From contig JBAXXP010000002.1 of the NCBI GenBank assembly GCA_037127815.1, forward strand, positions 41,490 through 105,489: a stretch of DNA of 64,000 bases, written 5' to 3'. The stretch is from a bacterium. GTDB taxonomy: Bacteria > Patescibacteriota > Minisyncoccia > Phycocordibacterales > CAIZLB01. Within the stretch, counting starts at the first letter, position 1. Each line of letters begins with the position of its first letter. The notes under the pieces were generated by a model, which worked only from the letters and a program-made list of their open reading frames with translations, was not told where the DNA came from and did not search any database. The translations under genes were made by a program, and so were the position numbers. This document shows, in pieces, positions 4,211 through 58,458 of the stretch.

Positions 4211-6139
4211 ATGGCTAAAATAATAGGAATAGACTTGGGAACAACTAACTCGGCCGTTGCCGTAATGGAGGCTGGGGCTCCAAAGATTCTAGAGAACGCA
4301 GAAGGTTCAAGAACAACACCTTCAATTGTGGCAATCTCAAAGACAAATGAGAGACTTGTTGGATTATTAGCAAAGCGTCAAGCTGTAACTAATCCAAAGA
4401 ATACCGTTTATGGTATCAAGAGATTTATCGGGCACAGTTTTGATGAGGCCGGAGTTCAAGCTGATCTAAAAACCGTAGCTTACGATCTTTCAAAGGCAGC
4501 AAACGGTGGAGTTAATATAAAGATGGCTGACAAGGATTACTCTGCAGAAGAAGTTTCTGCAATGATTCTTTCAAAAATTAAGGCTGATGTTGAGGCAAAA
4601 CTTGGTGAGAAAATTACACAGGCTGTTATTACAGTTCCTGCATACTTCAATGACTCACAAAGACAAGCGACAAAGGATGCTGGTAAAATTGCAGGACTTG
4701 AAGTAATGAGAATCATTAATGAGCCAACAGCAGCGGCTCTTGCTTATGGATTCAACAAAAAGAAGGATGAGAAATTAGCAGTCTTTGACTTTGGAGGAGG
4801 AACATTTGATATCTCAATTCTAGAAGTTGGTGATGAAGTTGTCGAGGTTAAAGCAACAGACGGAGACCATAGACTTGGAGGACGCGATATTGATTACAAA
4901 CTATTAAATTACATCGCTGATGAATTTAAGAAAGAAAACGGAATTGATCTTAGAAAAGACCCTCTTGCAATGCAAAGGCTTGATGAGTCAGCTGAGAAGG
5001 CAAAGATTGAACTTTCAACAGCGACAGAAACAGAAATAAATATTCCTTTTATTGCTAACGATGATTCAGGACCAAGACACTTGGTACTTAAAATTACTCG
5101 TGCAAAATTGGAAGAAATTGCTGATGAATTCATAGAGCGCGCAATGCAAATTACAAAGCGTGCAATTGAGGCTTCACCATTTAAGGTGGCTGATATTAAT
5201 GAAATTATCCTAGTTGGAGGACAAACAAGAATGCCAAAACTTAGAGAGACTGTTAAAGCTTTCTTTGGAAAGGAACCAAATCTTACAATTAATCCTGATG
5301 AAGTTGTCGCCCTAGGTGCTGCAATTCAAGGTGGAGTTCTTGGAGGAGATGTCACTGGAATTCTACTTCTAGACGTTATTCCACTTTCACTTGGAATTGA
5401 AACTATGGGAAATGTTACAACAAAACTTATTGAAAGAAATACAACTATCCCTACATCACGTTCACAAGTTTTCTCAACTGCGGCGGACAATCAAACATCT
5501 GTAGAGATTCATATTGTTCAAGGTGAGCGTGCTCTTGCGCAAGACAATAAGTCACTAGGTAGATTTATTCTAGATGGTGTTCCACCAGCACCACGTGGTA
5601 TGCCCCAAGTTGAGGTTACTTTTGATGTTGATGCAAACGGAATCCTAAGTGTTAAAGCAAAGGAGAAGGCAACAAACAAAGAACAATCAATTAGAATTGA
5701 AGCAAGCTCAAGTCTTTCAAAAGAGGATATTGAGAAGATGAAGCAAGATGCTGAACTTCACGCAGCTGATGATGTTAAGAAGAAAGAGGAAATTGAAATG
5801 AGAAATACTGCTGATAACATGATTTACACAGCGGAAAAGGCTATCAGAGAGAATAAGGAAAAGATTCCAGCTGAGGTTATAACGGGAGTTGAGGAAAAGG
5901 TTACTGCACTTCGTGCTATTAAGGATACTGGTGAAATTGAAGCTGTTAAAAAAGCATCTGAAGAACTTTCAACTGAAATTTCAAAGATTGGTGAAGCGCT
6001 TTCAAAGGCAGCACCCGCTCCTGAGGCTGGAGCTACTCCAGGGGCTGAATCTGCAACAGAACCCGCAACTGGACCAGAAACTGGATCAACAGAAAAAACA
6101 CCAGAGGGTGACAATGTTAGAGATGCGGAGACAAAATAA
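4211..6139 (+). CDS. dnaK: Chaperone DnaK (Hsp70)
   Basis: [22 protein letters not shown]..., DLGGGTFD, the Hsp70 signatures and an acidic, Gly/Ala/Pro-rich tail. Confidence 0.95.
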
Positions 6140-8301: not shown

Positions 8302-8465
8302 AGATAAGGTTGAAGGTAGGCCATGTTCAAGCCATTGTTTTTTTGGTGTTACTGTGTTATAGTAGCATTAATGTTATCGATTCTCCTGTCATTTAGGCAA
8401 AGGGATTAACCCCGACGACGTTAGGCGGTAAGACCTCAAATTGGTACCTTACCCCATACAAATAT

Positions 8466-10471: not shown

Positions 10472-10526
10472 CCGCTTAATTGCTACAACTCGTCATATAC
10501 GAGAAGTGCAATTGAGCGGTTTTTTT
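10472..10526 (+). terminator. Intrinsic terminator (long-loop hairpin)
   Basis: CCGCTTAATTGC ... GCAATTGAGCGG plus TTTTTTT, with an inner CTCGT/ACGAG hairpin in the loop. Confidence 0.5.
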
Positions 10527-10554
10527 GGGGTCAGGCACCACGGTGCCTGACCCC
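10527..10554. repeat. REP-like 28-bp perfect palindrome (copy 1)
   Basis: GGGGTCAGGCACCACGGTGCCTGACCCC. Member of the family listed in the findings. Confidence 0.85.
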
Positions 10555-10637
10555 AAAAAAAGGTGTGCATATCTATATTGAAAATTTACAGACATGTTAT
10601 AATCAGTAAGTACTAATAATATTATAATACTAGAATT

Positions 10638-27484: not shown

Positions 27485-27512
27485 GGGGTCAGGCACCGTG
27501 GTGCCTGACCCC
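27485..27512. repeat. REP-like palindrome (copy 2)
   Basis: GGGGTCAGGCACCGTGGTGCCTGACCCC. Confidence 0.85.
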
Positions 27513-43504: not shown

Positions 43505-43532
43505 GGAGTCAGTTACCATAGAGCCTGACCCT
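43505..43532. repeat. Degenerate REP-like palindrome
   Basis: GGAGTCAGTTACCATAGAGCCTGACCCT, with diverged centre and arms. Confidence 0.5.
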
Positions 43533-43946: not shown

Positions 43947-44273
43947 ATGGCAACAAAAAAAGCTGGAGGTTCAGCGAAAAACCTAACTGATTCAAATCCA
44001 CAATACCTAGGTATAAAACTATACGCAGGTGAGCGTGCTCAAACTGGATCAATCATCGTAAGACAAAGAGGAACAAAGATCATGGCTGGTAAGAACGTTG
44101 GTGTTGGTAAAGACCATACACTTTACGCTACTGCTCCTGGTGTTGTTGCATACACAGAAAAGAGAAAAGTTGATTTTGATAATAAGGTTAGCAAGAGAAA
44201 GGTTGCTAATGTTGTTGGAGAAGTTGCTAAGGTTGCAAGCAAGAAAGCTGCAACTAAGGTTGTTGCTGCTTAA
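43947..44273 (+). CDS. rpmA: 50S ribosomal protein L27 with Lys/Ala-rich C-terminal extension
   Basis: [12 protein letters not shown]...[28 protein letters not shown] is canonical L27, with a ~25-aa KA-rich tail. Confidence 0.9.
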
Positions 44274-44283
44274 TGAGTAGTTT

Positions 44284-44311
44284 GGGGTCAGACACCATGG
44301 TGCCTGACCCC
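44284..44311. repeat. REP-like palindrome (copy 3)
   Basis: GGGGTCAGACACCATGGTGCCTGACCCC, with one arm mismatch. Confidence 0.8.
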
Positions 44312-45642: not shown

Positions 45643-45670
45643 GGGGTCAGGCACTATGGTGCCTGACCCC
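45643..45670. repeat. REP-like palindrome (copy 4)
   Basis: GGGGTCAGGCACTATGGTGCCTGACCCC. Confidence 0.8.
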
Positions 45671-46809: not shown

Positions 46810-46828
46810 GGGGTCAGGCACCACAGTG
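46810..46828. repeat. Half REP (left arm and centre only)
   Basis: GGGGTCAGGCACCACAGTG, then divergent sequence. Confidence 0.5.
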
Positions 46829-46890
46829 TATACAGTTCACCTGCGCGAACCCCTTGACCCCACCCCACTACATATGTTATAAAAAAGTAT

Positions 46891-48109: not shown

Positions 48110-48205
48110 GGGGTCAGGCGATTCAGCAGAATCGCCTACTGGGCCATTCAGCAGGATCGCCTACTGGGCGAGTTTGGTCTAAGATCTGAATCGTGTGCCT
48201 CACCC
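48110..48205. repeat. Composite long REP variant A
   Basis: GGGGTCAGGCGATTC-[two copies of a ~25-nt unit ATTCAGCAG(A/G)ATCGCCTACTGGGC]-...TGAATCGTGTGCCTCACCC. Confidence 0.7.
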
Positions 48206-48341
48206 TAAACTTATCCACATCGGTATTGTAAGACAGATTGACATTTCGTATAATATGGTGTAGGGTATAGATGTGTCTGTGGGCGTAAGCCTTGTTCGGC
48301 AAAAGGATTTCCTAAGTCGAAGACAGACACGATTAAAAAAG

Positions 48342-48368
48342 CACCTCGCAAGAGGTGTTTTTTTAATG
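48342..48368. terminator. Bidirectional terminator at the 3' end of the minus gene 48363..48839
   Basis: AAAAAAGCACCTC-gcaa-GAGGTGTTTTTTT. Confidence 0.55.
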
Positions 48369-48839
48369 CTTCATAATACTCCAAAAGATTGGATTTTGAC
48401 TATTCTCCACCTCAAGGATAATCACCCTGACTTCTACCGGTGTTTTTCTTCCAATAGTTGCAACTAGCGCATATTGTTTGGCTTTGACTTTTTTAGCATT
48501 CTTTTTACTATTTTGTGGCATGATTATATTTCTTTCTTCGTGAATTCCGATAGAGTTTTTAATTACAGGTACAGCCAATGGTACAAGGGTTAGTTTGTGT
48601 ATTTTCTCCGCAACTTTTCTAGGAGTTCCATCAGGTTTGTAATGGAGATGGTGAAAACCTTTTGCATTGAAAACAACATCTTTATTTAGTATAGGACAAA
48701 AAACTTTTCCTATAGACGTATAGGAAATTTTAGTTGCTGTACTTAATAGTTCACAGTGTTCAATTTGGTTTAAAATCACATCAAAAAAAATACCATAATT
48801 TACTATATTTTTCAATACCTTTTGGCAATGTGTACACAT
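48363..48839 (-). CDS. Hypothetical protein in a cassette bounded by long REP variants
   Basis: 158-aa ORF with N-terminal CxxC and no recognised domain, flanked by repeats at 48110-48205 and 48901-48980. Confidence 0.4.
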   Translation of the reverse strand: MCTHCQKVLKNIVNYGIFFDVILNQIEHCELLSTATKISYTSIGKVFCPILNKDVVFNAKGFHHLHYKPDGTPRKVAEKIHKLTLVPLAVPVIKNSIGIHEERNIIMPQNSKKNAKKVKAKQYALVATIGRKTPVEVRVIILEVENSQNPIFWSIMKH

Positions 48840-48900
48840 ATATGGCCCCTTTGATAGTATTAATATTAATGACTATACACATGCCACAAAACATCAAAGA

Positions 48901-48980
48901 GGATCGCCTACTGGGCCATTCAGCAGGATCGCCTACTGGGCCATTCTGGTCGAAGACCTGAATCATGAGTACCTAACCCC
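48901..48980. repeat. Composite long REP variant B (lacks the left GGGGTCAGGC arm)
   Basis: GGATCGCCTACTGGGCCATTCAGCAGGATCGCCTACTGGGCCATTC-TGGTCGAAGACC-TGAATCATGAGTACCTAACCCC. Confidence 0.7.
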
Positions 48981-48999
48981 AAATTAATGCAAGAAAAAT

Positions 49000-49027
49000 C
49001 CCCCGCGGCGCCATGGCGCCGCGGGGG
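49000..49027 (-). terminator. Perfect 28-bp GC palindrome terminator for the minus gene 49078..49776
   Basis: CCCCCGCGGCGCCATGGCGCCGCGGGGG, followed on the minus strand by ATTTTTCTT. Confidence 0.6.
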
Positions 49028-49077
49028 AAACTTGTTATCATTCACTTCATTTCAGATTGATTGGCTACGGCGGCACA

Positions 49078-49776
49078 TTATCGAATCGCGAAAGGTTGCC
49101 CCACAGCAATCCCCTCTGGTGATTCAATTTCAATGCTAAACCCGTAAGGATTTGTTGCGCCCCACCCACTTGCTTTCTGCACAACAAATTTATAAATTTC
49201 AGTTGGAGTTTCATTCTTCGGAAACTTTTTAGGCCCAGAATTATTAATACCAACTTTTAAACATGAATAGAAGTCATTTTGAACTGATTCTTTAATACCA
49301 CTAAAAGGATCACTGAATATCCAACTCATTACCCCGTAAGAAAACACGCCATTAGATAAAATGTACGCTGTTGGATAATCCTTGCACTTGATCTTATATT
49401 TAATCGTCACATTACTCCAATCAACGCCCGAAGTCCTGTATGTGATGACGTTACCATAAGAAGGGATATCATTCGGAATGCAAACAAACCTACTACCTGA
49501 GCAAAGTGGCCAATGGAATCCTGTTCCATTTTTCACCAGATTGGTAATCTTCCCACTACTATTCCTAACAATCCTATACTGAGGACTACTCAGATAAGGA
49601 ATAGAATTGAATTCATAAATAAAAGGGGAAATAAAAACTATCGCCACAGAAACAAAAAGATACTTTGGAATATATAAATCTTGCTGCACCTTTGTTTTCC
49701 AAAGGTAGGTATAGAGAAGCCAAAGCACAGCAAAATACACAATGCATGCGAGCATAACAAATACTGGATAGTACAT
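49078..49776 (-). CDS. Hypothetical membrane-anchored protein
   Basis: Two N-terminal TM helices and a Cys-containing soluble domain with no known motif. Lies downstream of the giant surface-protein gene on the same strand. Confidence 0.4.
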   Translation of the reverse strand: MYYPVFVMLACIVYFAVLWLLYTYLWKTKVQQDLYIPKYLFVSVAIVFISPFIYEFNSIPYLSSPQYRIVRNSSGKITNLVKNGTGFHWPLCSGSRFVCIPNDIPSYGNVITYRTSGVDWSNVTIKYKIKCKDYPTAYILSNGVFSYGVMSWIFSDPFSGIKESVQNDFYSCLKVGINNSGPKKFPKNETPTEIYKFVVQKASGWGATNPYGFSIEIESPEGIAVGQPFAIR

Positions 49777-49962
49777 GATTTTATTTAGTTGGAGTTGAAA
49801 TAGCTCAAATCACTGGCTGGGAATCAGCCGAGTCAAAGAGCAGTACATCGGACATAGTGCATCATTTATTGATGTTTTACAAGCCCGCACTCTTTGACAT
49901 TAGTTGTTTACTGATTTTAATAAAACCTAGATCATATACTAATCCAAAAAAACATGTTCACT

Positions 49963-52900
49963 TTATTTCTCTACAGTATTTGCCAAACTTGTGCACTTAG
50001 ACTCTAGAACAGCGGTTGCATTAGACTTAATAATTGCTCCGGTAGAAGATGTACCACTATTGTAATCCACACTACATGATAACGTATGTTTACCTACATT
50101 TTTTTGAACATCCTTAAACATTTTTCCACCGGTTGAGCTAGGTAGAAGACTTACACTTACCCCATCAATTGAACACGCTATTACATTAATACCTCTATAA
50201 GTTTTACCATCTGACATAACAATAGTAGGATCTATTTGACCAAGATATGCGCATTTTTTTGTTGTCTGATTTGCCCATGGTGGATTTGCTTTAAAACTCA
50301 TTCCACTCTCTATAGTTAGACCAGCACTTGTGCCAGTGCCAGTAGCACCATCTTCACCCAACTTAGGACATGCTGGGGTAATATTATCTACCCAAGTCTG
50401 GTCCCCCATTGGCTTCCCAGAGTATATTGCCCTAATACCAAATGAGACATTTGTATTATTTAGATATTGAGAAATATCTACAGTTGTACCTGTTATAATT
50501 TTGTGTACGGAGGTTAAATCAGTTTTATTTTTAACTTCAAAATCATAGCTTGTAGCATCTGGAACAGTATTCCAAGATAGGTTTGGGGATACACAATAGA
50601 ATAATGCTTGGACTTTAGGTTTATCAGAGACAGTTATAGCAAAAGATTTCCAAGCCGATGAAATACCGCTAACAGTTTCCGTAGCTTTGACTCTAAAAGT
50701 AAAATTTCCTTTTGCGTTCCATGTATTGGATGATGAAACCTCTACACCAGGTAGTACGGGCGTGCTTGTAGATACTTTAGTACCATCATTATTCCAATCA
50801 AATGTATATACGAATTTAGGCCCTGTATCAGCCTGTGCAAAAACTTTTTTGAAAGCAAAAATTATTGATGCAAGAAATGAAGTATTTTCTTTTTTTGCGA
50901 CAGGATTCAAATGAGACACAGCTGTATATGTTGTTGATAATCCGAGTGAAACAGCTGTTGGGCCGGTGACAGTTGGAGGTGAGATAGATAACGCTGCTGT
51001 GGGAGGAACAGTAATGGCGTAGGTGATTGGAGCGAAGGAGAAAGCATAGCCTGCTATCGTACTTTGGTCTCTGCTGAGCTGAGATTCGCATATATCATAG
51101 TAATCACATACGGTAGTGATAACATTAACATTGACTACACCGAAACCATTACTATGACCTCCAAAATAATCTTGATACAAAGTATACAAGTACGTAGCTT
51201 CTGACACATAACCATATGGAGTAATCCAGGAAAACATATTATATGCAAAATTGTAAGCAGCGATGTTAGTTTTTGCAAATCTACCAGGAATACACCCTAT
51301 ATTTTGTCCTGCCCAAGGATCAAAATGCTTATACCAAACAAATGTCCAATGAAACATATCACAAGTATTGATAGTATTACTTGTCTCATGTTGTACATCT
51401 GAAAAAGAAACCGTAATATTAGCACTACCAGGGCCGACTGCTGTACATTTATTTGACTCACAAGATACAACATTTGAATCATTCGACGTTAAAGTGGTAG
51501 TACCTGATTCTAAGGGAACTCCCACATTAAAACTTCCATACTCAAGATGTGAATACCACCCACTTTCAAAAGTCATCTCCCACGTTTGATAATCACTCTT
51601 ATAATAATTATTCCCATCCATCGGAGAAACTCCTCCATACGACGGATCATAAAGATACCAATATCCCTGTGATGGTAACGATGTGGCATTAATTACTTCT
51701 CCTACTGTTAGTAAACTTGTAGTTGCGTCATCTAGATTAACCCCAGATTTAATTAAGTTAAAATACTTAGATATTTTTCCACCCAAAGAAAAACTCCACG
51801 GGTCAGCAGGTGCATTATATCCAGTCCAAGATCCCCCTTGAGGCAGGTCAACACTAAAATCTGCGGTCCTTGTTGCTGCCTCCGTCTTATGAGAAAACGT
51901 AGGTGCGTAAAACGAAATGGAAAACAAAACAAACATCAACATTACTACACCACCCAAACTTCTCTTATTCCCCTTTACATTTATTTTATTTTTAATACTC
52001 ATCCACACTATCACTCCAAAAAATACTAATACAATTATTCCACCCAAGGCATACAAAATCCACGTCCAATAATCGACTTTGTAAACTGGGCATAATTTAG
52101 GATCAATATCCTTACATTTATAATTATCCTCGATCTTGTCTATCACATTACCATTGCTGTCTGTTATGGTTGTGATAGTTTTAAAGTTCACTAAATCTTT
52201 CTTAGGTGTAAACTTGCCAGCAATAGTCTCTATGATTCTACCAATTTTTCCGTTGTATTGCGTTTCTGAAATAACATTATTTTGATCATCAAATAAAACA
52301 GTATCGATATTTACAGGGTTTAATGCGTTTTGATTTGATCCATTTTGAAAACAAGTAAACAGTACTGCTTCTTGGCCGACTTTAATTGGGTACGTATTCA
52401 CGCCAAAATTATTTATTCTTGGATAATCAAAACCAGAAACAGTGAACCTTATATTAGATTCCGTTTTAACACTATAGATGCTTCTATCATTTTTCAAATT
52501 AGTATTATCAGCTTTTATATTCAAAAAATAAACCGGCGCGTCTATCTTCTTTGTCGTATATACCAAATTAACCTTACTATTTTCTGGAACTATTACCTCC
52601 TCTGTTTTTGTATCCACTTTATTTTTTTCCAATAATCCATCCCATTTATATAGAGAATATACCACTGTCATTTTTTCAGCAGTATTTGAAGGGTTAACTA
52701 ATAATATAGAAACATCTACTTTTTTACTATTGTCCTGATTAGACGCAAAAGACGACGTGTCATAAGGTTTATTATTCAGCGTGATTTTAGTTTGATCCAA
52801 ATAAATTTGTTGAGTATTATCTCCTTCAACTCTAAAACCTAGGTTTGAAGCTGTTGCATTATTTGTAAAAGATAGTCCAGATTGATTAAATCTATCGTCA

Positions 52901-53535
52901 TTATATACATAAAATAATATCTTATAATTACCCTTTGGCGAATTTAATGGCAGTACATGAGAGTAATTAACTGCAAGACTTTTACCAGCACCTAACGTTA
53001 TATTTTCTACTATATTAAAATCTTCCAACGTAATAATTTCTGATCTTAAATATTCTGGATTTGGAATATCCTTTACCAGCCTAGCTCTAACGGTTAGATT
53101 TGTGATTGGATATTTATTATTATTTTTTATTACACCACGAATAATCATAACATCTCCAGGATTGTATGTGTTCATATCATTAGTAAGATCTACATCAACA
53201 CTACCAAAAGTTGAGTAATCGGTACACTGAGCTGGTTGACCTTGCTTGTATGCTGTTAAATCTACCGTTGTAGTCGCCTTTTGATTTCTAAAAATAAATG
53301 AAGAGCTTGCATTTAGAAGCAATTGCTTGTAAGTAGATGATGAGACTAAAGCCCTGTCTGGTAAGTATAAAATAGGACGAGTAGTTGTTGCAAAATTATA
53401 TGTATGAGCATTTTTTTGATCTAACCTGAACCCATTCTTGTCATAGATTTTTGGATCAAGTTTAGTTTGAGCAAAAACAGAGGTAGATACACTTAACAAA
53501 ATCAATGCAAATAGCAGCAAAAAAATCTTTTTCAT
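49963..53535 (-). CDS. Giant (1190 aa) secreted/surface protein with signal peptide, internal TM segments and beta-rich Ser/Thr/Asn-rich domains
   Basis: Signal peptide MKKIFLLLFALILLSVSTSVFA, two hydrophobic segments near residues ~490-545, and a C-terminal region with an FN3-like signature (SWNTVPDATSYDFEV). Confidence 0.7.
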   Translation of the reverse strand: MKKIFLLLFALILLSVSTSVFAQTKLDPKIYDKNGFRLDQKNAHTYNFATTTRPILYLPDRALVSSSTYKQLLLNASSSFIFRNQKATTTVDLTAYKQGQPAQCTDYSTFGSVDVDLTNDMNTYNPGDVMIIRGVIKNNNKYPITNLTVRARLVKDIPNPEYLRSEIITLEDFNIVENITLGAGKSLAVNYSHVLPLNSPKGNYKILFYVYNDDRFNQSGLSFTNNATASNLGFRVEGDNTQQIYLDQTKITLNNKPYDTSSFASNQDNSKKVDVSILLVNPSNTAEKMTVVYSLYKWDGLLEKNKVDTKTEEVIVPENSKVNLVYTTKKIDAPVYFLNIKADNTNLKNDRSIYSVKTESNIRFTVSGFDYPRINNFGVNTYPIKVGQEAVLFTCFQNGSNQNALNPVNIDTVLFDDQNNVISETQYNGKIGRIIETIAGKFTPKKDLVNFKTITTITDSNGNVIDKIEDNYKCKDIDPKLCPVYKVDYWTWILYALGGIIVLVFFGVIVWMSIKNKINVKGNKRSLGGVVMLMFVLFSISFYAPTFSHKTEAATRTADFSVDLPQGGSWTGYNAPADPWSFSLGGKISKYFNLIKSGVNLDDATTSLLTVGEVINATSLPSQGYWYLYDPSYGGVSPMDGNNYYKSDYQTWEMTFESGWYSHLEYGSFNVGVPLESGTTTLTSNDSNVVSCESNKCTAVGPGSANITVSFSDVQHETSNTINTCDMFHWTFVWYKHFDPWAGQNIGCIPGRFAKTNIAAYNFAYNMFSWITPYGYVSEATYLYTLYQDYFGGHSNGFGVVNVNVITTVCDYYDICESQLSRDQSTIAGYAFSFAPITYAITVPPTAALSISPPTVTGPTAVSLGLSTTYTAVSHLNPVAKKENTSFLASIIFAFKKVFAQADTGPKFVYTFDWNNDGTKVSTSTPVLPGVEVSSSNTWNAKGNFTFRVKATETVSGISSAWKSFAITVSDKPKVQALFYCVSPNLSWNTVPDATSYDFEVKNKTDLTSVHKIITGTTVDISQYLNNTNVSFGIRAIYSGKPMGDQTWVDNITPACPKLGEDGATGTGTSAGLTIESGMSFKANPPWANQTTKKCAYLGQIDPTIVMSDGKTYRGINVIACSIDGVSVSLLPSSTGGKMFKDVQKNVGKHTLSCSVDYNSGTSSTGAIIKSNATAVLESKCTSLANTVEK

Positions 53536-53596
53536 GGTGAAAATTATATCATAAACAAATAAATAATTTAACTATTATATAGTGTATAATAGTTAG

Positions 53597-54451
53597 ATGA
53601 AACTAATTACAAAAGTTTTAATATCACTGATTCCAATATTTGTAGTTTTTTTATATGGCATAATTGGCATCAAACTCTCCCCTACGTATGCAGAAGCAAG
53701 CGTTGCTCCAAAAATTAAAATACTAATCGTAGCGGGTCATGAACCAGATTACGGTGGTGCAATTTATAAGACATTGAAGGAGAGAGAATTGAATTTGCAG
53801 CTGGCTGAGAAAATCGTAAAGAATCTTGAGAAAAACCCAAGATATGATGTTGTGGTTTCAAGAGATGATAAAGGCTGGAATCCTGAACTACAGTCATATG
53901 TCACAGACAACAAAGAAACAATCTTGTCATGGTCTGCAGACAAAAAACACGTAAGGAATTTTTTAACGGCAATAGGTGGGGCCTCTGTTATAAATTCCAA
54001 AATGGGTCATGTAACAGCAAATGCAACATCTTCGCTTTATCTATTTGGAATAAACAAATGGGCCAACGATACAAAGGTTGATATGGCAATCAATATTCAC
54101 TTTAATGATAATTTAAAGTATAAAGGCAAGCCAAATTTTGAAGGATTCTCAATTTATATACCAGAAAGACAATATTCAAATTTTGCACCTAGTAAGAAGT
54201 TTGCATGGGGTCTACTTGATGAAATGTTGAAAATAAACAGAATTAGTTCCATGAAGGAAGAAAGCGATGGTATTATCGAGGATCAAGAGCTAATTGCATT
54301 AGGAGTTAATAATACCGCTAATGAACCGTCGGTCATTGTTGAATATGCATATATATACGAGAAATTTATGCAGAAAAAGAAAACAAGAGATGCCTACATT
54401 AATAAAGCAGCATCATCAACAGTGCTTGCGATAAATAAATATTTTAAATAG
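53597..54451 (+). CDS. N-acetylmuramoyl-L-alanine amidase (Amidase_3-like)
   Basis: N-terminal TM, KILIVAGHEPDYGGA, ...VDMAINIHFND and a conserved E, consistent with the zinc amidase family 3 pattern. Divergent from the giant protein gene. Confidence 0.5.
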   Translation: MKLITKVLISLIPIFVVFLYGIIGIKLSPTYAEASVAPKIKILIVAGHEPDYGGAIYKTLKERELNLQLAEKIVKNLEKNPRYDVVVSRDDKGWNPELQSYVTDNKETILSWSADKKHVRNFLTAIGGASVINSKMGHVTANATSSLYLFGINKWANDTKVDMAINIHFNDNLKYKGKPNFEGFSIYIPERQYSNFAPSKKFAWGLLDEMLKINRISSMKEESDGIIEDQELIALGVNNTANEPSVIVEYAYIYEKFMQKKKTRDAYINKAASSTVLAINKYFK

Positions 54452-54461
54452 CTTTGAATTT

Positions 54462-54489
54462 GGGGTCAGACACCATGGTGCCTGACCCC
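54462..54489. repeat. REP-like palindrome (copy)
   Basis: GGGGTCAGACACCATGGTGCCTGACCCC. Confidence 0.8.
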
Positions 54490-54497
54490 AAATTCAT

Positions 54498-54845
54498 CTA
54501 TAGACCTAACTCTTTCTGTCGAGGATCATACCCATGAGAATGTCTTTCATGATCATGATGTTCTGGGTGTGATAATATATCAAATTTACCATCAGCCTCT
54601 GTAACATACTCTCTAACAGTTTTACCATCTATATCGTTGTACTCAACATAAAACTCGCCAACTCCCCCTTTCAAATCTTTTTTTGGAATAAATATATGAG
54701 TTCCATCAGGATATGTTACGTAAATATTTGGACTCAATTCCTCCTCTGGCGCAGCTGCAATTAGTGGATCTATTGATTCTGCGATGTGACGCATTTCTGG
54801 ATCAAAAGTTTCCCTATTATCAAAATTTGGTATTCCATTTGGCAT
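54498..54845 (-). CDS. Hypothetical protein with His-rich C-terminus, bracketed by two REPs
   Basis: 115 aa, ending ...HPEHHDHERHSHGYDP. Confidence 0.35.
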   Translation of the reverse strand: MPNGIPNFDNRETFDPEMRHIAESIDPLIAAAPEEELSPNIYVTYPDGTHIFIPKKDLKGGVGEFYVEYNDIDGKTVREYVTEADGKFDILSHPEHHDHERHSHGYDPRQKELGL

Positions 54846-54866
54846 ATTTTATATTATACCTTATTT

Positions 54867-54894
54867 GGGGTCAGGCACCATGGTGCCTGACCCC
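54867..54894. repeat. REP palindrome immediately upstream of the RAYT gene
   Basis: GGGGTCAGGCACCATGGTGCCTGACCCC. Confidence 0.85.
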
Positions 54895-54962
54895 AAAAGT
54901 TATCCACAACCATAGTATAAAATCTTTGGCTTTTCTTTTATTTCAATTCTTATGATTTACTC

Positions 54963-55559
54963 ATGCCAAGACAACCAAGAGTTGATATTGCTAATAATTA
55001 TTATCACTGCATTAATCGTGCAAGCGCTAGATTAAAGATTAATTTTAATGATGATGATTTTAGATTAATAATAAAAGTGCTTTTTGAAGCACAAAAAAAA
55101 TTTAATATTGATATATTAGCATTTGCTATAATGAATAATCACTTTCATTTAGTCATAAAAACAAATCAAGATAAACAAATGTCTCAATTCATGAAATGGT
55201 TTACCTTTGTTCATACTAAAAGATGGCATTTTATAAACAAGACAGCCGGAACCGGACATCTATATCAAGGCAGATACAAGTCATTTATAATTTTAGATCA
55301 GAGACATCTGGAAACCGTCATCAGATATGTTGAAAGAAACCCTTTAACGGCAAATATTGTCAAGAATATACTAGACTGGAAATACTCAAGTTTATATCAG
55401 AGATATGTTTCAAATAAAGTGAATTCTATAGCACAGACTCAAATGCAAATAAAATTAGCTGATTGGCCCTATAATGAATCAATAGATTATTTGAAAAATC
55501 TTATTGAACCATACACAAATAAGGAAATAGAGAAAGCTCTTGAGTCAGAAATGGAGTAA
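54963..55559 (+). CDS. REP-associated tyrosine transposase (RAYT; HUH/Y1 transposase, COG1943 / IS200-like family)
   Basis: NYYHCINRASAR..., HUH motif NHFHLVIKT, and the hallmark GHLYQGRYKSFIILDQRHLETVIRYVERNPLTANIV...YSSLYQRY. Confidence 0.8.
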   Translation: MPRQPRVDIANNYYHCINRASARLKINFNDDDFRLIIKVLFEAQKKFNIDILAFAIMNNHFHLVIKTNQDKQMSQFMKWFTFVHTKRWHFINKTAGTGHLYQGRYKSFIILDQRHLETVIRYVERNPLTANIVKNILDWKYSSLYQRYVSNKVNSIAQTQMQIKLADWPYNESIDYLKNLIEPYTNKEIEKALESEME

Positions 55560-55563
55560 TTTT

Positions 55564-55591
55564 AGGGTCAGGCACCGTGGTGCCTGACCCT
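55564..55591. repeat. REP palindrome immediately downstream of the RAYT gene
   Basis: AGGGTCAGGCACCGTGGTGCCTGACCCT. Confidence 0.8.
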
Positions 55592-55648
55592 AAAAAACAA
55601 TCAAAAACCCCTCCGCGGTTGCGGAAGGGGTGTAATACATTTTACAGT

Positions 55649-56128
55649 CTAACGAGTCTGTCGACCCCCTGAAATTGAAAAATGTTTTGAAATAATATCA
55701 CAGTTCTTTGGCTCATGTTTGTCGCCAAGAAATTGTTCAATCTCCAACATGTGACTGATGAATATAAAGAATGCGGTAGGTGCTGGTGTAATTAACGTAG
55801 TCACATTATTATTATTCAAACTATGCTTACTACAATCCAGCCAATCAACTTCTTCAAGCTCCTTAGGTCTGACCCTAAGTAAATTAAATAATGAATCATA
55901 GACAACTCCAGCCGTCATCAAAGCCCTTGGGGTTGGCGAATGAAAAATCCTAATGTCATTCTTGTGCGGTTTGATCAGATTACCAAGGACCTGAACGTTC
56001 CTTTGGCAGATCTCCACAGAATTCCACTTAAGCCTAGCGCCGTCCGCTGTGACGTATTGAGCAGCATGGCGCATAACAGCGTATCTGGAATTCAAAAAAC
56101 GATTCACGTAACTCTTACTACTTCTCAT
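55649..56128 (-). CDS. SixA-like histidine phosphatase (phosphohistidine phosphatase family), paralog 1
   Basis: AVMRHA (RH[GA] catalytic motif), HSPTPRALMTAGVV (SPxxRAxxTA) and FIFISHMLEIEQF (catalytic His), matching the SixA pattern IMRHGDA / SPFLRAEQT / VISHLPLV. Confidence 0.45.
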   Translation of the reverse strand: MRSSKSYVNRFLNSRYAVMRHAAQYVTADGARLKWNSVEICQRNVQVLGNLIKPHKNDIRIFHSPTPRALMTAGVVYDSLFNLLRVRPKELEEVDWLDCSKHSLNNNNVTTLITPAPTAFFIFISHMLEIEQFLGDKHEPKNCDIISKHFSISGGRQTR

Positions 56129-56235
56129 GTTTTATTGGGGTTGGGGTTCTATTCTCTTTCTTGAAATGAGCGGCTTTTCTATCAAAGCTCTGGCCAAACA
56201 CTACCATAGATTTTTAACCTTGTAAATATAAGAAA

Positions 56236-56262
56236 AGGGTCAGGCTATGAAAGCCTAACCCT
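56236..56262. repeat. Degenerate REP-like palindrome between the two SixA-like genes
   Basis: AGGGTCAGGCTATGAAAGCCTAACCCT. Confidence 0.5.
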
Positions 56263-56291
56263 TTTTAAAACTGCATGGTGTGCAAGGCAAT

Positions 56292-56831
56292 TTAAAAATC
56301 AGTCAGCAATCTGCCATTCACGATGACATGTTGTCTTGTGATAATCGAACAACTGCACGGCTCCCAAGCAGCAGAACCGATAAAATTGCACATATTTGGC
56401 ATATGAGTAATAAAGAATGAAAAATGAAGATCTCCCTCTGAACAAACTGTGTTCATATTTGCATTAATACTCCCCTCTTTTCCGTCTTCGCAACCCAACC
56501 ATTGAACTGGCTGAATATTAGAAACGGGAATGTTATGACAAGCAAACTCAGACCTAACCATCTGGGCGGTGAGCTCAGCCCGCCTCAACGGAGAGTAAAA
56601 AATACTGACCACAACATTGGGATTATCGGTGAAGTCCTCAAGTTCATGAGTTACAAGAACCTGAATATTTCTTCTGCCGATTTTGACTGAATTACGGCAA
56701 AGCTCAATTCCACTTTGTCCTTCAAAATAATGTGCATGCCGCATCACAGCATAACCATCACGTGTAAACCTACCACTGTAACTGTTCATATTATTGAATA
56801 TTTGAATTGTTTTGATAGAACGAGTAGACAA
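56292..56831 (-). CDS. SixA-like histidine phosphatase, paralog 2 (TTG start)
   Basis: YAVMRHAHYF, YSPLRRAELTAQMV, FFITHMPNMCNF. Confidence 0.45.
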   Translation of the reverse strand: MSTRSIKTIQIFNNMNSYSGRFTRDGYAVMRHAHYFEGQSGIELCRNSVKIGRRNIQVLVTHELEDFTDNPNVVVSIFYSPLRRAELTAQMVRSEFACHNIPVSNIQPVQWLGCEDGKEGSINANMNTVCSEGDLHFSFFITHMPNMCNFIGSAAWEPCSCSIITRQHVIVNGRLLTDF

Positions 56832-56888
56832 GAGCGCCTACTTCCGATTGTAATATTACATCTATTTTATTCTTTGTACAGTCAATTT

Positions 56889-56935
56889 GGGGTCAGGCGA
56901 TTCTGGTCGCAGACCTGAATCGTGTGCCTGACCCC
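56889..56935. repeat. Long REP variant C (extended-stem palindrome)
   Basis: GGGGTCAGGCGATTC-TGGTCGCAGACC-TGAATCGTGTGCCTGACCCC. Confidence 0.75.
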
Positions 56936-56940
56936 AAATA

Positions 56941-58458
56941 TTAGAAAGCTAGATGATCCTCATCCCCCATGAATATGGTTCCACTATCATCCGACATTCT
57001 TTTCATGAAGTTTGTAATTCTTTCATCAATCATAATATGACGTCTAACTAATGGAGTTTTTAGAATCATTCCATCTAAACTTCTACACCTACTTAAAGCA
57101 ACATAAGCTTGTCCATGGGTAAATGTTCCTCTACCAAAGTCTACAACAACATTACTATAAGTTTTTCCCTGTCCTTTGTGAATTGTAATTGCCCAAGCGA
57201 GTCTAATTGGAAACTGAGTAAATGTTCCAACTACGTCGGTGTCTACTGAGTCAAAATCTTTATCATAAGAAAATTTCACCATTTCCCAAGTGTACTTTGG
57301 TACCAAATAATTTTCACCGTTTTCTAATCGAACAAAAATTTCCTGCTTGTTTTCATTTATACTTGTTATGGTTCCAAGGTCACCATTTACCCATCTTGCT
57401 TCCTTGTCATTATTCAACATCATAATCCTTGCGCCTTCTTTTAATGCAAGACATTCATTGGTTGGAAAATTTCTTTCAAATGATCCAGATTTTTTACCCT
57501 TAAATATTATTTTATTTGTTTCGAGTTCATTCAGCTTCCCAAGATTAAGTGCATCAGCCATCGCATTTGTTGTGACAAGAAAAATATAATCACTATATTG
57601 CATTGGGTCAATATTATCCTCCATTGGATTTAGATATCTCTTATTTAAAAGTGTTAAATGTGAATCTTTAAGATTTCCAGACCTCACACCTTCTAGTATA
57701 TCTATGAATTTATCATCGTCCTGTCTGTAGATTTTACTTAGCTCTATAAGTTCAAAATCTGCTTTCAGAAATACTTTTGAATCAAAAAAGTATGGACTCT
57801 TATAGTACGATGAAAACATTTCTTCCTCATAGCTAGTTACAACTGGTGGAAGCTGAAACATATCCCCTACTACAATTATTTGAGTACCGCCAAATGGAGT
57901 ATTTTTATCTTTTCCATTTAATCGCATAAACGTGTCTACACAATCAAAAAGATCAGCGCGAACCATAGAAATTTCATCAATAATTATTGTATCTATGTTT
58001 TTATAAATCGCAGTGCTTCCTGTTGCTTTCTTTATGGACATAGGACTTACATTTATTCCAAATTTAAAGAACGAGTGAATAGTTTGTCCACTAATGTTTA
58101 CTGCGGAAACCCCAGTTGGTGCGAGTATGACAATTTTCTTTTTTGTTGTAGCTTTGAAATACCTAACAAGAGTTGTTTTTCCAGTTCCCGCTTTTCCAGT
58201 AAGAAAAATATTTGTTGAAGTACTTTCCATTTTGTTAAGTGCAACGAGCGTCTCATCATTCAATTCCATATTTGCAAATTCTTTGGAAAGTTTTTCCGCT
58301 AGAGCTTTATCTCCAGATCCTGGATTTTGTTTTTCCGATTTTTCAGCTGCAACTTTTGCAAGGGTTTTTTTAAAAATTTCTGTCTTAGATGGGCCAGTTT
58401 TGCTGGCTTTGGATTTCTTGTTGAATTTGGAATATGAAGAGAATGTGGAAAATGGCAT
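56941..58458 (-). CDS. Pif1/RecD-like SF1B DNA helicase
   Basis: Walker A LTGKAGTGKTTL, Walker B IIIDEISMV, GDMFQLPPV and motif V AITIHKGQGKTY. The start is set at MPFSTF because the upstream 21 codons of the track ORF are just the GC terminator hairpin at 58482-58505. A TATAAT sits 7 nt before the ATG (leaderless-like). Confidence 0.75.
   Translation of the reverse strand: MPFSTFSSYSKFNKKSKASKTGPSKTEIFKKTLAKVAAEKSEKQNPGSGDKALAEKLSKEFANMELNDETLVALNKMESTSTNIFLTGKAGTGKTTLVRYFKATTKKKIVILAPTGVSAVNISGQTIHSFFKFGINVSPMSIKKATGSTAIYKNIDTIIIDEISMVRADLFDCVDTFMRLNGKDKNTPFGGTQIIVVGDMFQLPPVVTSYEEEMFSSYYKSPYFFDSKVFLKADFELIELSKIYRQDDDKFIDILEGVRSGNLKDSHLTLLNKRYLNPMEDNIDPMQYSDYIFLVTTNAMADALNLGKLNELETNKIIFKGKKSGSFERNFPTNECLALKEGARIMMLNNDKEARWVNGDLGTITSINENKQEIFVRLENGENYLVPKYTWEMVKFSYDKDFDSVDTDVVGTFTQFPIRLAWAITIHKGQGKTYSNVVVDFGRGTFTHGQAYVALSRCRSLDGMILKTPLVRRHIMIDERITNFMKRMSDDSGTIFMGDEDHLAF

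What the first reader, a model, noticed from the sequence alone, without database searches (positions are those of the whole stretch)
54867..55591. REP/RAYT system: a HUH tyrosine transposase flanked by the window's dominant palindromic repeat family
A 28-bp perfect palindrome (consensus GGGGTCAGGCACC-N-GGTGCCTGACCCC, often with TTT/AAA flanks) occurs in at least 13 intergenic copies. Full copies sit at 10527, 27485, 44284, 45643, 54462, 54867 and 55564; long variants at 48110, 48901 and 56889; degenerate or half copies at 43505, 46810 and 56236. Two of the best copies bracket a 198-aa gene whose product carries the COG1943 / IS200-like Y1 transposase hallmarks (HUH = NHFHLVI, and GHLYQGRYKS...RYVERNP). 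That is the architecture of a REPtron, with REPs as the cognate substrate of a REP-associated tyrosine transposase. Eleven of the 13 copies lie in the last 21 kb, so this region looks like a REP proliferation zone. REP/RAYT systems are best studied in gamma-proteobacteria. Finding one in an AT-rich, small-genome (possibly CPR-like) organism, with REPs that have a GC-rich stem and so stand out against the host's composition, would be unusual.
Basis: partly seen in the sequence, partly recalled or inferred. Interest (0 to 1): 0.8.

Follow-up and report, generated by a model that had tools for sequence, protein, structure and literature searches.

The report
Tyrosine transposase gene with palindromic repeats
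A candidate-phyla-radiation bacterium carries one conserved copy of a RAYT-like tyrosine (HUH) transposase gene, and the short inverted repeats at its ends have fused into a 28-bp hairpin-forming palindrome copied to about a dozen nearby intergenic sites; this is a real but already described kind of system (a "TIRtron"), here in an unstudied lineage.

Summary
GGGGTCAGGCACC-NN-GGTGCCTGACCCC occurs as 7 full, 1 disrupted, 3 long and 2 degenerate copies, all intergenic (17 half-sites against 0.18 expected). Two copies bracket ORF 54963-55559, a 198-aa Y1/HUH protein whose best sequence and fold match is E. coli TnpAREP (4er8).

The interpretation needs refining. In about 85 homologous loci from many phyla (GC 31-71%), the gene is bracketed by a single inverted-repeat pair. 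Its motif fits the published GGGGWSAS consensus of TIRYT/TIRtron elements (Di Nocera 2013), not GTAG REPs. The repeat type tracks protein clades. The window's 28-bp palindrome equals left end plus right end joined by 2 nt. Relatives show single ends (L107, L024, L025) or a doublet with a 32-nt spacer (L108).

The gene is single-copy in about 82 kb. It is syntenic with an 82%-identical ortholog (L023) and under strong purifying selection (dN/dS 0.065, dS 1.4), yet its flanking palindromes stayed identical or nearly so.

The palindromes are not terminators: an A-run follows the stem on both strands, and some sit between divergent genes.

The host is a Patescibacteria (Paceibacteria-like) bacterium, where this family is common, so the "unusual host" claim is overstated. 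Verdict: new member of a known, little-studied kind; moderate interest.

The parts
54963..55559 (+). Y1/HUH tyrosine transposase-like gene (TIRYT class, RAYT relative), 198 aa. HUH = His60/His62; catalytic Tyr122 (RYVERNP).
   Evidence: Pfam PF01797 58.2 bits. NCBIfam RAYT model 66.8 bits against IS200 model 21.7. A family profile hits only 4er8 TnpAREP in the PDB, E 2.4e-7. AF2 model pLDDT 86.6 has top Foldseek hit 4er8_A, E 2.5e-8. dN/dS 0.065 against the L023 ortholog.
54864..54897 (.). Left flanking palindrome: TTT-GGGGTCAGGCACC-AT-GGTGCCTGACCCC-AAA. It sits between the divergent 115-aa gene and the Y1 gene.
   Evidence: ssDNA hairpin dG -18.6, z -7.4. Identical copy at the orthologous place in L023.
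55560..55597 (.). Right flanking palindrome (AGGGTCAGGCACC-GT-GGTGCCTGACCCT), starting 5 nt after the Y1 stop codon.
   Evidence: dG -18.2, z -9.2. Orthologous copy in L023 at 3430-3457.
54462..54489 (.). Full copy between the convergent amidase gene and 115-aa gene. It is the right boundary of the 6.3-kb block that is absent from L023.
10527..10554 (.). Dispersed full copy with T7/A7 flanks, between co-directional genes.
   Evidence: dG -22.3.
27485..27512 (.). Dispersed full copy, 28 nt after the stop of a class II aminoacyl-tRNA synthetase gene (Pfam tRNA-synt_2).
44284..44311 (.). Full copy (one arm mismatch), 11 nt after the 108-aa ORF 43947-44273, between convergent genes.
45643..45670 (.). 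Full copy (one arm mismatch) between two minus-strand genes.
46810..46861 (.). Disrupted copy upstream of cdaA: intact left arm, 31 unrelated nt, then GACCCC. It is orthologous to the intact copy at L023:1013-1040.
48110..48206 (.). Long variant: same termini (GGGGTCAGGC...TGCCTCACCCT) enclosing a 25-nt tandem repeat. It is the left boundary of the 6.3-kb block absent from L023.
48901..48980 (.). 5'-truncated long variant with the same internal 25-nt repeat and right terminus (GAGTACCTAACCCC).
56889..56935 (.). 47-bp long variant (GGGGTCAGGCGATTC...GAATCGTGTGCCTGACCCC). It is the right boundary of the 1.3-kb block absent from L023.
   Evidence: dG -23.0, z -9.5..
43505..43532 (.). Degenerate copy (3 mismatches per arm) between divergent genes.
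56233..56265 (.). Degenerate copy with the opposite flank polarity (AAAA-stem-TTTT). It is the only family member that looks like a terminator.

Best explanation
This is a TIRtron-type RAYT system. It consists of a single-copy, vertically inherited Y1/HUH tyrosine nuclease-ligase gene and its cognate terminal inverted repeats, whose core GGGGTCAG fits the GGGGWSAS family.

In this Paceibacteria-like lineage the 13-nt left and right ends have been joined head-to-head with a 2-nt spacer. That gives a 28-bp perfect palindrome (34 bp with its TTT/AAA flanks), in effect an 'empty' element or minimal REPIN. Longer versions of 47-97 bp share the same termini.

As single-stranded DNA, each palindrome folds on either strand into a GC-rich hairpin of 13-16 bp.

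Inferred steps, by analogy with E. coli TnpAREP and IS608/ISDra2 TnpA:
- The enzyme recognises this hairpin or end motif on ssDNA exposed at replication forks.
- It cuts via a 5'-phosphotyrosine on Tyr122, with metal held by His60/His62.
- It rejoins the DNA elsewhere, mostly nearby. This would explain the roughly 13 intergenic copies, 11 of them within 13.5 kb of the gene.

Shown here: enzyme family and fold, conserved catalytic residues, family-wide end architecture, co-variation of ends with protein clade, synteny, purifying selection, hairpin potential and intergenic clustering.

Inferred, not shown: binding, cleavage, and copying of the palindromes by this enzyme.
For: Enzyme:
- Pfam Y1_Tnp.
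- The RAYT model scores far above the IS200 model.
- The only PDB sequence hit of the family profile is TnpAREP.
- The top fold hit is TnpAREP bound to a REP hairpin, followed by ISDra2 and IS608 TnpA.
- HUH and Tyr are invariant.

Cognate ends:
- 56 of 71 evaluable homolog loci have an exact inverted repeat of >=12 bp (median 20) bracketing the gene, against 2 of 355 shuffles.
- Positions are conserved: -35 to -120 from the ATG on the left, and overlapping or just after the stop codon on the right.
- The repeat sequence type follows protein clades.
- The window's half-site is the family motif, and it fits the published GGGGWSAS consensus.

Origin of the palindrome:
- L107 (65% identical protein), L024 (59%) and L025 (54%) have single ends.
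- L108 (63%) has a left-right doublet with a 32-nt spacer.
- L023 (82%) and the window have the 2-nt spacer.
- Left-right doublets also occur dispersed in GC-rich relatives.

Domesticated character:
- One copy in about 82 kb.
- The order cdaA, small ORF, Y1, PIF1-type helicase is conserved with L023.
- dN/dS is 0.065 at dS 1.38, while the left flanking palindrome is 28/28 identical and the right one 25/28 identical.

Hairpins.
Against: - No activity data exist for any member of this clade.
- The copy number seen is low: 13 in about 82 kb.
- Ten contigs of the same population, from NCBI, JGI, ENA and Logan assemblies, are 99.97-100% identical with no insertion polymorphism. There is therefore no direct sign of ongoing movement.
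- No empty or filled site pair was found, so the target and footprint are unknown.
- E. coli TnpAREP needs an imperfect hairpin plus a 5' GTAG (PMC3479197). Here the hairpin is perfect and GTAG is absent, so the recognition details must differ.
- The protein scores below NCBI's RAYT cutoff.
- Single family ends fold only weakly (dG -4 to -6). Evidence for their stem-loop is only suggestive.
Confidence: 0.72

Rival explanations
1. An autonomous, selfish insertion sequence: an IS200-superfamily element that, unusually, has terminal inverted repeats. The 28-97-bp palindromes would be its MITE-like non-autonomous derivatives. On this reading the gene unit itself still transposes and spreads horizontally, and is not a domesticated host gene.
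For: - The unit looks like a classical IS: inverted repeat, promoter, ORF, inverted repeat.
- The right repeat often encodes the C-terminus and stop codon (AAA GGT ACC TGA = K-G-T-stop).
- The left repeat abuts a TTGAC -35 box.
- The family is spread over genomes of 31-71% GC, with 20,435 cluster representatives.
- L020 carries a partial duplicate of the 5' end plus repeat, and L017 a tandem duplicate of the right repeat.
- Quentin 2018 infers horizontal transfer and loss for these classes.
Against: - The gene is single-copy in about 82 kb.
- It occupies the same genomic neighbourhood in a lineage diverged to dS 1.4, under strong purifying selection.
- No second copy was found in any 20-kb homolog locus.
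- The population shows no polymorphism.
Confidence: 0.18
2. The palindromes are primarily host RNA or DNA structural signals, such as transcription terminators, mRNA 3'-end stabilisers or attenuators. On this reading they are selected for that role, and their adjacency to the Y1 gene is incidental.
For: - Many copies lie 5-30 nt after stop codons, several between convergent genes (44284, 48110, 54462, 55564).
- E. coli REPs are known to stabilise upstream mRNA (background in PMC3733652).
- One degenerate copy (56233-56265) has A-run/T-run polarity and is flagged as terminator-like.
Against: - On both strands the stem is preceded by T's and followed by A's, so no U-tract follows the hairpin.
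- The terminator scan flags none of the 28-bp copies in 54300-57000.
- Recognisable terminators in the same region use other sequences with T-runs: 55608-55629 (flagged by the scan) and 48999-49027 (read by eye).
- Copies 54867, 43505 and 46810 lie between divergent gene starts.
- The same motif brackets the gene in about 85 loci from unrelated phyla and co-varies with the protein.
- A secondary RNA-hairpin effect of transcribed copies is not excluded.
Confidence: 0.05
3. The motif is a double-stranded operator for a dimeric DNA-binding protein, possibly the Y1 protein acting as its own repressor. The dispersed palindromes would then be a regulon of binding sites rather than mobile copies.
For: - The 13-2-13 inverted half-site geometry resembles an operator.
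- In many homologs the left repeat directly abuts a TTGAC -35 box, as expected for autoregulation.
Against: - Several copies sit between convergent 3' ends where there is nothing to regulate.
- The long variants keep only the termini.
- The right repeat lies at the 3' end of the gene in the whole family.
- Y1 enzymes studied so far act on ssDNA (PMC6006769, PMC3479197).
- Autoregulation through the left repeat may well coexist with the main explanation.
Confidence: 0.05

Closest known systems
TIRtron / TIRYT (TIR-associated tyrosine transposase), Di Nocera, De Gregorio & Rocco 2013, BMC Genomics 14:522 (PMC3733652)
   Same: - A RAYT-like Y1 gene bracketed by terminal inverted repeats rather than GTAG REPs.
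- The repeats sit at fixed distances from the gene, and the 3' repeat may overlap the ORF.
- The shared motif is GGGGWSAS; the window has GGGGTCAG.
- Some repeats are self-complementary, and some form moderately abundant dispersed families arranged as dimers or clusters.
   Different: - The described examples came from cultured Proteobacteria, Acidobacteria and similar groups. No CPR examples were found in the two papers that use the term.
- Here the dispersed unit is a perfect left-plus-right fusion with only a 2-nt spacer.
- This clade's protein (189-198 aa) has lost the C-terminal tail (about 26 aa) present in the other homologs aligned here.
Subclass 2.1 of the TnpAY1 family (Quentin, Siguier, Chandler & Fichant 2018, PMC6006769)
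   Same: - Stated to correspond to most TIRYTs.
- No typical REPs are found next to the gene.
- The HuH-to-Tyr spacing is about 58-67 aa; here it is 60-62.
- A conserved Trp/Ser extension follows the core; here W139 and S143.
   Different: - Subclass 2.1 proteins are among the longest and carry a C-terminal HTH or Bac_DnaA_C domain.
- The window protein is 198 aa with no such Pfam hit.
- Subclass assignment could not be tested without their profiles.
REPtron: E. coli TnpAREP/RAYT with REP/BIME (Nunvar 2010; Ton-Hoang 2012; structure 4er8, PMC3479197)
   Same: - Closest solved structure and closest curated sequence model.
- A single-copy gene flanked on both sides by its cognate hairpin-forming repeats, which are dispersed in intergenic DNA.
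   Different: - There is no 5' GTAG guide tetranucleotide.
- The hairpin is perfect, not bulged.
- There are no BIME pairs.
- Copies number about a dozen rather than hundreds.
- The score is below the NCBIfam RAYT cutoff.
REPINs (Bertels & Rainey 2011, PMC3116915; Bertels 2017, PMC5581495)
   Same: - Two inverted copies of the enzyme's recognition repeat form one hairpin unit that is the replicating entity.
- The associated transposase is single-copy, vertically inherited and under purifying selection.
   Different: - REPINs are about 60-110 bp, made of two imperfect palindromes plus a spacer, and occur tens to hundreds of times.
- Here the arms are non-palindromic 13-mers with a 2-nt spacer.
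- The RAYT groups that carry REPINs (groups 2 and 3) were described from Pseudomonas, Escherichia and similar genera.
IS200/IS605 TnpA (IS608, ISDra2)
   Same: The HUH/Y1 fold and presumed ssDNA chemistry.
   Different: - IS200/IS605 elements lack terminal inverted repeats, are multi-copy, often carry tnpB, and have a Y-x3-Q motif.
- Here the motif is Y-V-E-R-N, the IS200 model scores 21.7 bits against a cutoff of 55, and the gene is single-copy with inverted ends.

Membership tests
Y1/HUH transposase superfamily (Pfam PF01797) | Significant match to the family profile | tested here: met
   58.2 bits against cutoff 23, E 1.2e-15, covering profile positions 4-121 of 121.
Y1/HUH transposase superfamily (Pfam PF01797) | HUH metal-binding motif and a single catalytic Tyr on the following helix | tested here: met
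   N59-H60-F61-H62 and Y122 are invariant in 28 homologs. Y122 aligns with the Tyr of DYIYINP (residue 115) in 4er8. Y122 lies in predicted helix 113-129.
Y1/HUH transposase superfamily (Pfam PF01797) | HUH fold | tested here: met
   The AF2 model has pLDDT 86.6 and pTM 0.84. Foldseek PDB hits are 4er8_A (E 2.5e-8), then ISDra2, IS200 and IS608 TnpA.
RAYT / TnpAREP (NCBIfam NF047646 equivalog) | Score at or above the curated cutoff | tested here: not met
   66.8 bits against cutoff 80. All 28 family members match the model; the best E-value among them is 6.5e-23.
RAYT / TnpAREP | Closer to RAYT than to IS200 transposases | tested here: met
   RAYT model 66.8 bits against IS200 model 21.7. The family profile finds only TnpAREP in the PDB at E <= 0.01.
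RAYT / TnpAREP (REPtron) | Gene flanked on both sides by repeats that also occur dispersed in intergenic DNA | tested here: met
   Copies at 54867 and 55564 bracket the gene, and 11 more copies are all intergenic.
RAYT / TnpAREP (REPtron) | Conserved 5' GTAG (GT[AG]G) foot next to an imperfect hairpin | tested here: not met
   The flanks are TTT/AAA. GTAG appears near only 2 copies, at variable distance. The stems are perfect.
RAYT / TnpAREP (REPtron) | Single copy per genome, vertically inherited | tested here: inconclusive
   One copy in about 82 kb. Synteny with L023 and dN/dS 0.065. The whole genome was not available.
TIRtron / TIRYT (Di Nocera 2013) | RAYT-like Y1 gene bracketed by terminal inverted repeats unrelated to GTAG REPs | tested here: met
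   56 of 71 homolog loci have an exact inverted repeat of >=12 bp, against 2 of 355 shuffles. The window and L023 have the palindromised form.
TIRtron / TIRYT (Di Nocera 2013) | Repeat carries the GGGGWSAS motif at a roughly fixed distance from the gene | tested here: met
   The window has GGGGTCAG. 14 of 56 loci fit the strict motif and 42 of 56 a relaxed motif. Positions are conserved. The consensus is quoted.
TnpAY1 subclass 2.1 (Quentin 2018) | C-terminal HTH / Bac_DnaA_C domain; long protein | tested here: not met
   The protein is 198 aa and has no HTH or DnaA_C Pfam hit at E <= 0.1. The subclass profiles themselves were not available.
IS200/IS605 insertion sequence | Match to the IS200 transposase model; Y-x3-Q motif; multiple identical copies; no terminal inverted repeats | tested here: not met
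   21.7 bits against cutoff 55. The motif is Y-VER-N. One copy only. Inverted ends are present.
REPIN | Two inverted copies of the recognition repeat forming one hairpin, present as a replicating population | tested here: inconclusive
   The geometry is met: left end plus right end, and a hairpin of dG -18 to -23. Population size is small in the sequence seen. There is no polymorphism among 10 contigs of the same population.
Rho-independent terminator | GC-rich hairpin followed by a U-run on the transcribed strand | tested here: not met
   An A-run follows the stem on both strands. The scan flags none of the 28-bp copies it covered.

The most novel reading that the evidence does not exclude
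The fused-end palindromes may be more than passive copies. They may delimit DNA segments that the Y1 enzyme, or recombination between copies, moves in and out of the chromosome.

Relative to the ortholog-bearing contig L023, the window has exactly two extra blocks. One is 6.3 kb (48207-54461, encoding a 1190-aa secreted protein, an amidase and others). The other is 1.3 kb (55592-56888, two paralogous genes). Each block is bounded on both sides by members of this repeat family, abutting the neighbouring stop codons.

If so, a 'domesticated' TIRYT would be a driver of local gene-content variation in the small genomes of CPR bacteria. The 28-bp unit would also be about the smallest mobilisable element conceivable.
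Probability: 0.15. Interest if true: 0.65.

Novelty: new member of a known kind. Interest (0 to 1): 0.42.

Why it matters
RAYT/REP biology has been worked out almost entirely in gamma-proteobacteria. The TIR-flanked branch (TIRYT/TIRtron) was named in 2013 and, in the library searched here, appears in only two works.

This locus and its roughly 85 relatives give a clean comparative series:
- single ends bracketing the gene;
- a spaced left-right doublet;
- a 2-nt-spaced perfect palindrome that has been dispersed.

The series supports the idea that REP/REPIN-like repeats are born from the ends of a Y1 element. It also shows the family is widespread in Patescibacteria. Finally, it yields a simple, testable substrate, a 34-nt hairpin, for biochemistry of an uncharacterised Y1 clade.

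Tried and rejected
- Terminator reading: rejected on flank polarity, on locations between divergent genes, and on the scan result.
- GTAG foot and BIME-like pairing: looked for and absent.
- Rfam: nothing in the window except one tRNA.
- Exact-palindrome scan of one genome per species: only 6 singletons in unrelated MAGs, with no Y1 gene within +-4 kb. The source species is apparently not in that collection.
- Exact-palindrome scan of viral contigs: no match.
- Strain-level presence/absence: 10 contigs of the same population from NCBI, JGI, ENA and Logan assemblies are 99.97-100% identical, so this was uninformative.
- Palindromes flanking more distant homologs (L017, L020, L021): my first perfect-palindrome scan found none. 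The single inverted ends appeared only when I searched for the half-site.
- Promoter scan around the gene: not above background, 15 found against 10.7 expected.
- P0006 contig: no DNA available.
- Stem-loop within single family ends: 83% of cells paired against 76% in shuffles, with some compensatory changes. This largely reflects A-run/T-run flanks, so I treat it as suggestive only.
Full report
**1. Observation**

The half-site GGGGTCAGGCACC with at most 2 mismatches occurs 17 times on both strands, against 0.18 expected.

- Full 13-2-13 palindromes lie at 10527, 27485, 44284, 45643, 54462, 54867 and 55564.
- A disrupted copy lies at 46810-46861.
- Longer elements with the same termini lie at 48110-48206, 48901-48980 (5'-truncated) and 56889-56935. 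The first two contain a 25-nt tandem repeat.
- Degenerate copies lie at 43505 and 56233-56265.
- All copies lie between genes.
- Nearly all are flanked by TTT on the 5' side and AAA on the 3' side.
- As ssDNA they fold into 15-19-bp hairpins, dG -18 to -23 kcal/mol, z -6.7 to -9.5.
- Eleven of 13 copies lie within 13.5 kb around the gene (post-hoc binomial P = 1.9e-6).
- About 9 kb fetched beyond each end of the window adds no further copy.

**2. The gene**

ORF 54963-55559 encodes a 198-aa protein.

- It matches Pfam Y1_Tnp at 58.2 bits, cutoff 23.
- It scores 66.8 bits on NCBI's REP-associated tyrosine transposase model, which is below that model's 80-bit equivalog cutoff. It scores only 21.7 bits on the IS200 model.
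- A profile of 28 homologs finds a single PDB sequence, E. coli TnpAREP (4er8), at E 2.4e-7.
- An AlphaFold model (pLDDT 86.6) has 4er8_A as its best Foldseek hit (E 2.5e-8), followed by ISDra2, IS200 and IS608 transposases.
- His60, His62 (HUH) and Tyr122 (RYVERNP) are invariant across the alignment. Tyr122 aligns with the tyrosine of DYIYINP in TnpAREP.

**3. Host**

The window has 35.8% GC. Its DnaK is 73-79% identical to proteins named Candidatus Pacebacteria, Paceibacterota, Parcubacteria or Patescibacteria. The CPR guess is therefore right.

The Y1 family, however, is common there. The word-indexed search found 617 homologs, and the few that carry a source name are labelled Kaiserbacteria, Parcubacteria or Patescibacteria. 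The exhaustive search found 20,435 cluster representatives at E <= 1e-3 and 5,767 at E <= 1e-10.

**4. What the repeat is**

The decisive evidence came from relatives.

*Close and intermediate relatives*
- In L023 (82% identical protein) the gene is again bracketed by the same 28-bp palindrome, with a third copy upstream of cdaA.
- In more distant homologs (L017, L020, L021, L024) there is no palindrome. Instead one copy of the half-site lies about 50-160 nt upstream of the ATG, and its reverse complement lies at or just after the stop codon. The central bases co-vary between the two ends: GCA/TGC, ACT/AGT, GTA/TAC, ACA/TGT.

*Metagenome scan of 80 more loci (36-54% identity, GC 31-71%)*
- 56 of 71 evaluable loci have an exact bracketing inverted repeat of >=12 bp (median 20), against 2 of 355 shuffled controls.
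- Variants include AAAGGGGTCAGGTACCTTT, AAAGGTGTCAGGAACCTTT, AAAGGGGTCGGGAGTCTTT and AAAGGGGACGCAGCTCTTT.
- The repeat type follows the protein tree, as expected for an enzyme and its cognate site.
- The right repeat frequently encodes the end of the protein: AAA GGT ACC TGA gives K-G-T-stop, as in the family C-terminus ...GRPKKGT.
- The left repeat often abuts a TTGAC box.

*Match to the literature*
- This is the architecture that Di Nocera et al. (2013) named TIRtron/TIRYT. They describe RAYT-like genes flanked by terminal inverted repeats rather than GTAG REPs. Many of these repeats share GGGGWSAS at a fixed distance, some overlap the 3' end of the ORF, and some form moderately abundant families as dimers or clusters.
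- GGGGTCAG fits that consensus exactly.
- Quentin et al. (2018) equate most TIRYTs with their subclass 2.1. Their text does not mention Parcubacteria or candidate phyla.

**5. Origin of the 28-bp palindrome**

In the family the GGGG end faces away from the gene on both sides. The window's palindrome, GGGGTCAGGCACC-NN-GGTGCCTGACCCC, is therefore left end plus right end with the interior reduced to 2 nt.

- The window's clade is (L025, (L024, (L023, window))). Its proteins are 189-198 aa and lack the roughly 26-aa C-terminal tail.
- L107 (65%) has single long ends with the same 13-mer.
- L108 (63%) has an upstream doublet, GGGGTCAGGCCCC-32 nt-GGGGCCTGACCCC, whose arms carry a compensatory change.
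- L023 and the window have the 2-nt spacer.
- The window's 47- and 97-bp variants keep the termini and differ inside.
- Dispersed left-right doublets with 20-60-nt spacers also occur in GC-rich relatives such as L048, L094, L076 and L100.

**6. Domesticated or selfish?**

- The gene is single-copy in the sequence available.
- The window and L023 share the order cdaA, small ORF, Y1, PIF1-type helicase.
- Between them the gene has dN/dS 0.065 at dS 1.38.
- The left flanking palindrome is nevertheless 28/28 identical and the right one 25/28 identical. An orthologous copy persists upstream of cdaA, intact in L023 and disrupted in the window.
- This resembles vertically inherited RAYT/REPIN systems (PMC5581495) more than an active IS. 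The IS-like layout of the unit and its spread across phyla keep the selfish-element reading alive (confidence 0.18).

**7. Rivals**

*Terminators.* On either strand the stem is followed by A's. The terminator scan, which covered 54300-57000, flags none of the 28-bp copies there. Recognisable terminators nearby use other sequences followed by T-runs: 55608-55629, flagged by the scan, and 48999-49027, which I read by eye. Three copies sit between divergent gene starts. A secondary RNA-hairpin effect cannot be excluded.

*Operator regulon.* This does not fit the copies that lie between convergent 3' ends. Autoregulation through the left repeat remains plausible.

**8. Mechanism**

This part is inferred. 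HUH/Tyr chemistry would act on ssDNA, as shown for TnpAREP and IS608/ISDra2 (PMC3479197, PMC6006769). Recognition would be of the end motif presented in a hairpin. Copying would be mainly to nearby AT-rich intergenic sites.

Recognition must differ from E. coli, which needs a bulged hairpin plus GTAG. Single family ends can form a short A/T-clamped stem-loop with the conserved G(T/A)C(A/G)GG in the loop. That pairing is seen in 83% of cells against 76% in shuffles, with some compensatory pairs. This is only suggestive.

**9. Limits**

- No activity data exist.
- No insertion polymorphism was found among 10 near-identical population contigs.
- No empty site was found.
- No whole genome was available.
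- Subclass placement was not tested.

**10. Verdict**

This is a genuine, well-supported RAYT-type system of the TIRtron variety, in a Patescibacteria host. It is ordinary in kind, but it offers an unusually clear view of how a dispersed palindrome arises from the two ends of a Y1 element.

Noticed in passing
window 48110-54489 and 55564-56935, compared with L023:2284-2434 and L023:3400-3465: Relative to the contig carrying the 82%-identical ortholog, the window has two extra blocks. One is 6.3 kb and encodes 158-aa, 232-aa and 1190-aa proteins plus an amidase. The other is 1.3 kb and holds two paralogous genes of 159 and 179 aa (36% identical). Each block is bounded on both sides by members of the palindrome family that abut the neighbouring stop codons.
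   Followed up: partly
L001-L006 (Solirubrobacteraceae, Bacillota, two Omnitrophota and two Planctomycetia MAGs): The exact 28-bp palindrome occurs once in each of six unrelated genomes, with no Y1 gene within +-4 kb. A rough chance expectation is about 0.2, so these may be relics of related TIRYT systems.
   Followed up: partly
alignment A1 C-termini; L021:10661-10673: In most family members the right inverted repeat encodes the last residues and the stop codon (AAA GGT ACC TGA = K-G-T-stop). It follows an RGRPKK stretch that resembles an AT-hook (from memory). The window's clade has lost this tail of about 26 aa, and its repeats lack the AAAA...TTTT clamp.
   Followed up: partly
left ends in L036, L068, L073, L076, L088, L092, L098-L101: The left inverted repeat is immediately followed by cTTGAC, a -35-like box. 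This suggests that binding of the ends by the protein could repress its own promoter.
   Followed up: no
window 54456-54495 and 10520-10561; L023:2698-2737 and 1009-1044: Several copies are self-complementary beyond TTT/AAA, but with different sequences: GAATTT/AAATTC, T7/A7, TGTTTT/AAAACA and ATTT/AAAT. This is not a direct-repeat target duplication. It hints at insertion into AT-rich palindromic targets, or at fold-back duplication.
   Followed up: no
L020:9813-10000; L017:10696-10736: L020 has a duplicated left end plus a fragment of the gene's 5' coding region upstream of the intact gene. L017 (Kaiserbacteria, complete genome CP060229.1) has a tandem duplicate of the right end.
   Followed up: no
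L048:365-475, 1573-1683 and 5070-5180; L094; L076; L100; L063: Dispersed left-right doublets in GC-rich relatives keep the ends but have unrelated 20-60-nt spacers, so they are not simple copies of one miniature element.
   Followed up: no
window 48117-48169 and 48901-48950: A 25-nt unit (GGCCATTCAGCAGRATCGCCTACTG) is tandemly repeated inside two long variants, which flank the 158-aa gene 48363-48839 in direct orientation.
   Followed up: no
window 50066-50983 compared with L007:19459-20346 (just beyond the window's end): A segment of the 1190-aa secreted-protein gene is 77-84% identical at nucleotide level to part of a 1056-aa gene with faint TPR hits, located about 10 kb away. These are paralogous large surface proteins.
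   Followed up: no
window 8443-8455: A solitary half-site, GGTACCTTACCCC (2 mismatches), lies in an intergenic spacer. Its GGTACC resembles the repeat type commonest among the AT-rich homolog loci more than the window's own GGTGCC arm.
   Followed up: no
window 55608-55629 and 48999-49027: Two unrelated GC-rich hairpins followed by T-runs on the minus strand look like the real terminators of genes 55649-56128 and 49078-49776. The first was flagged by the terminator scan and the second was read by eye.
   Followed up: partly
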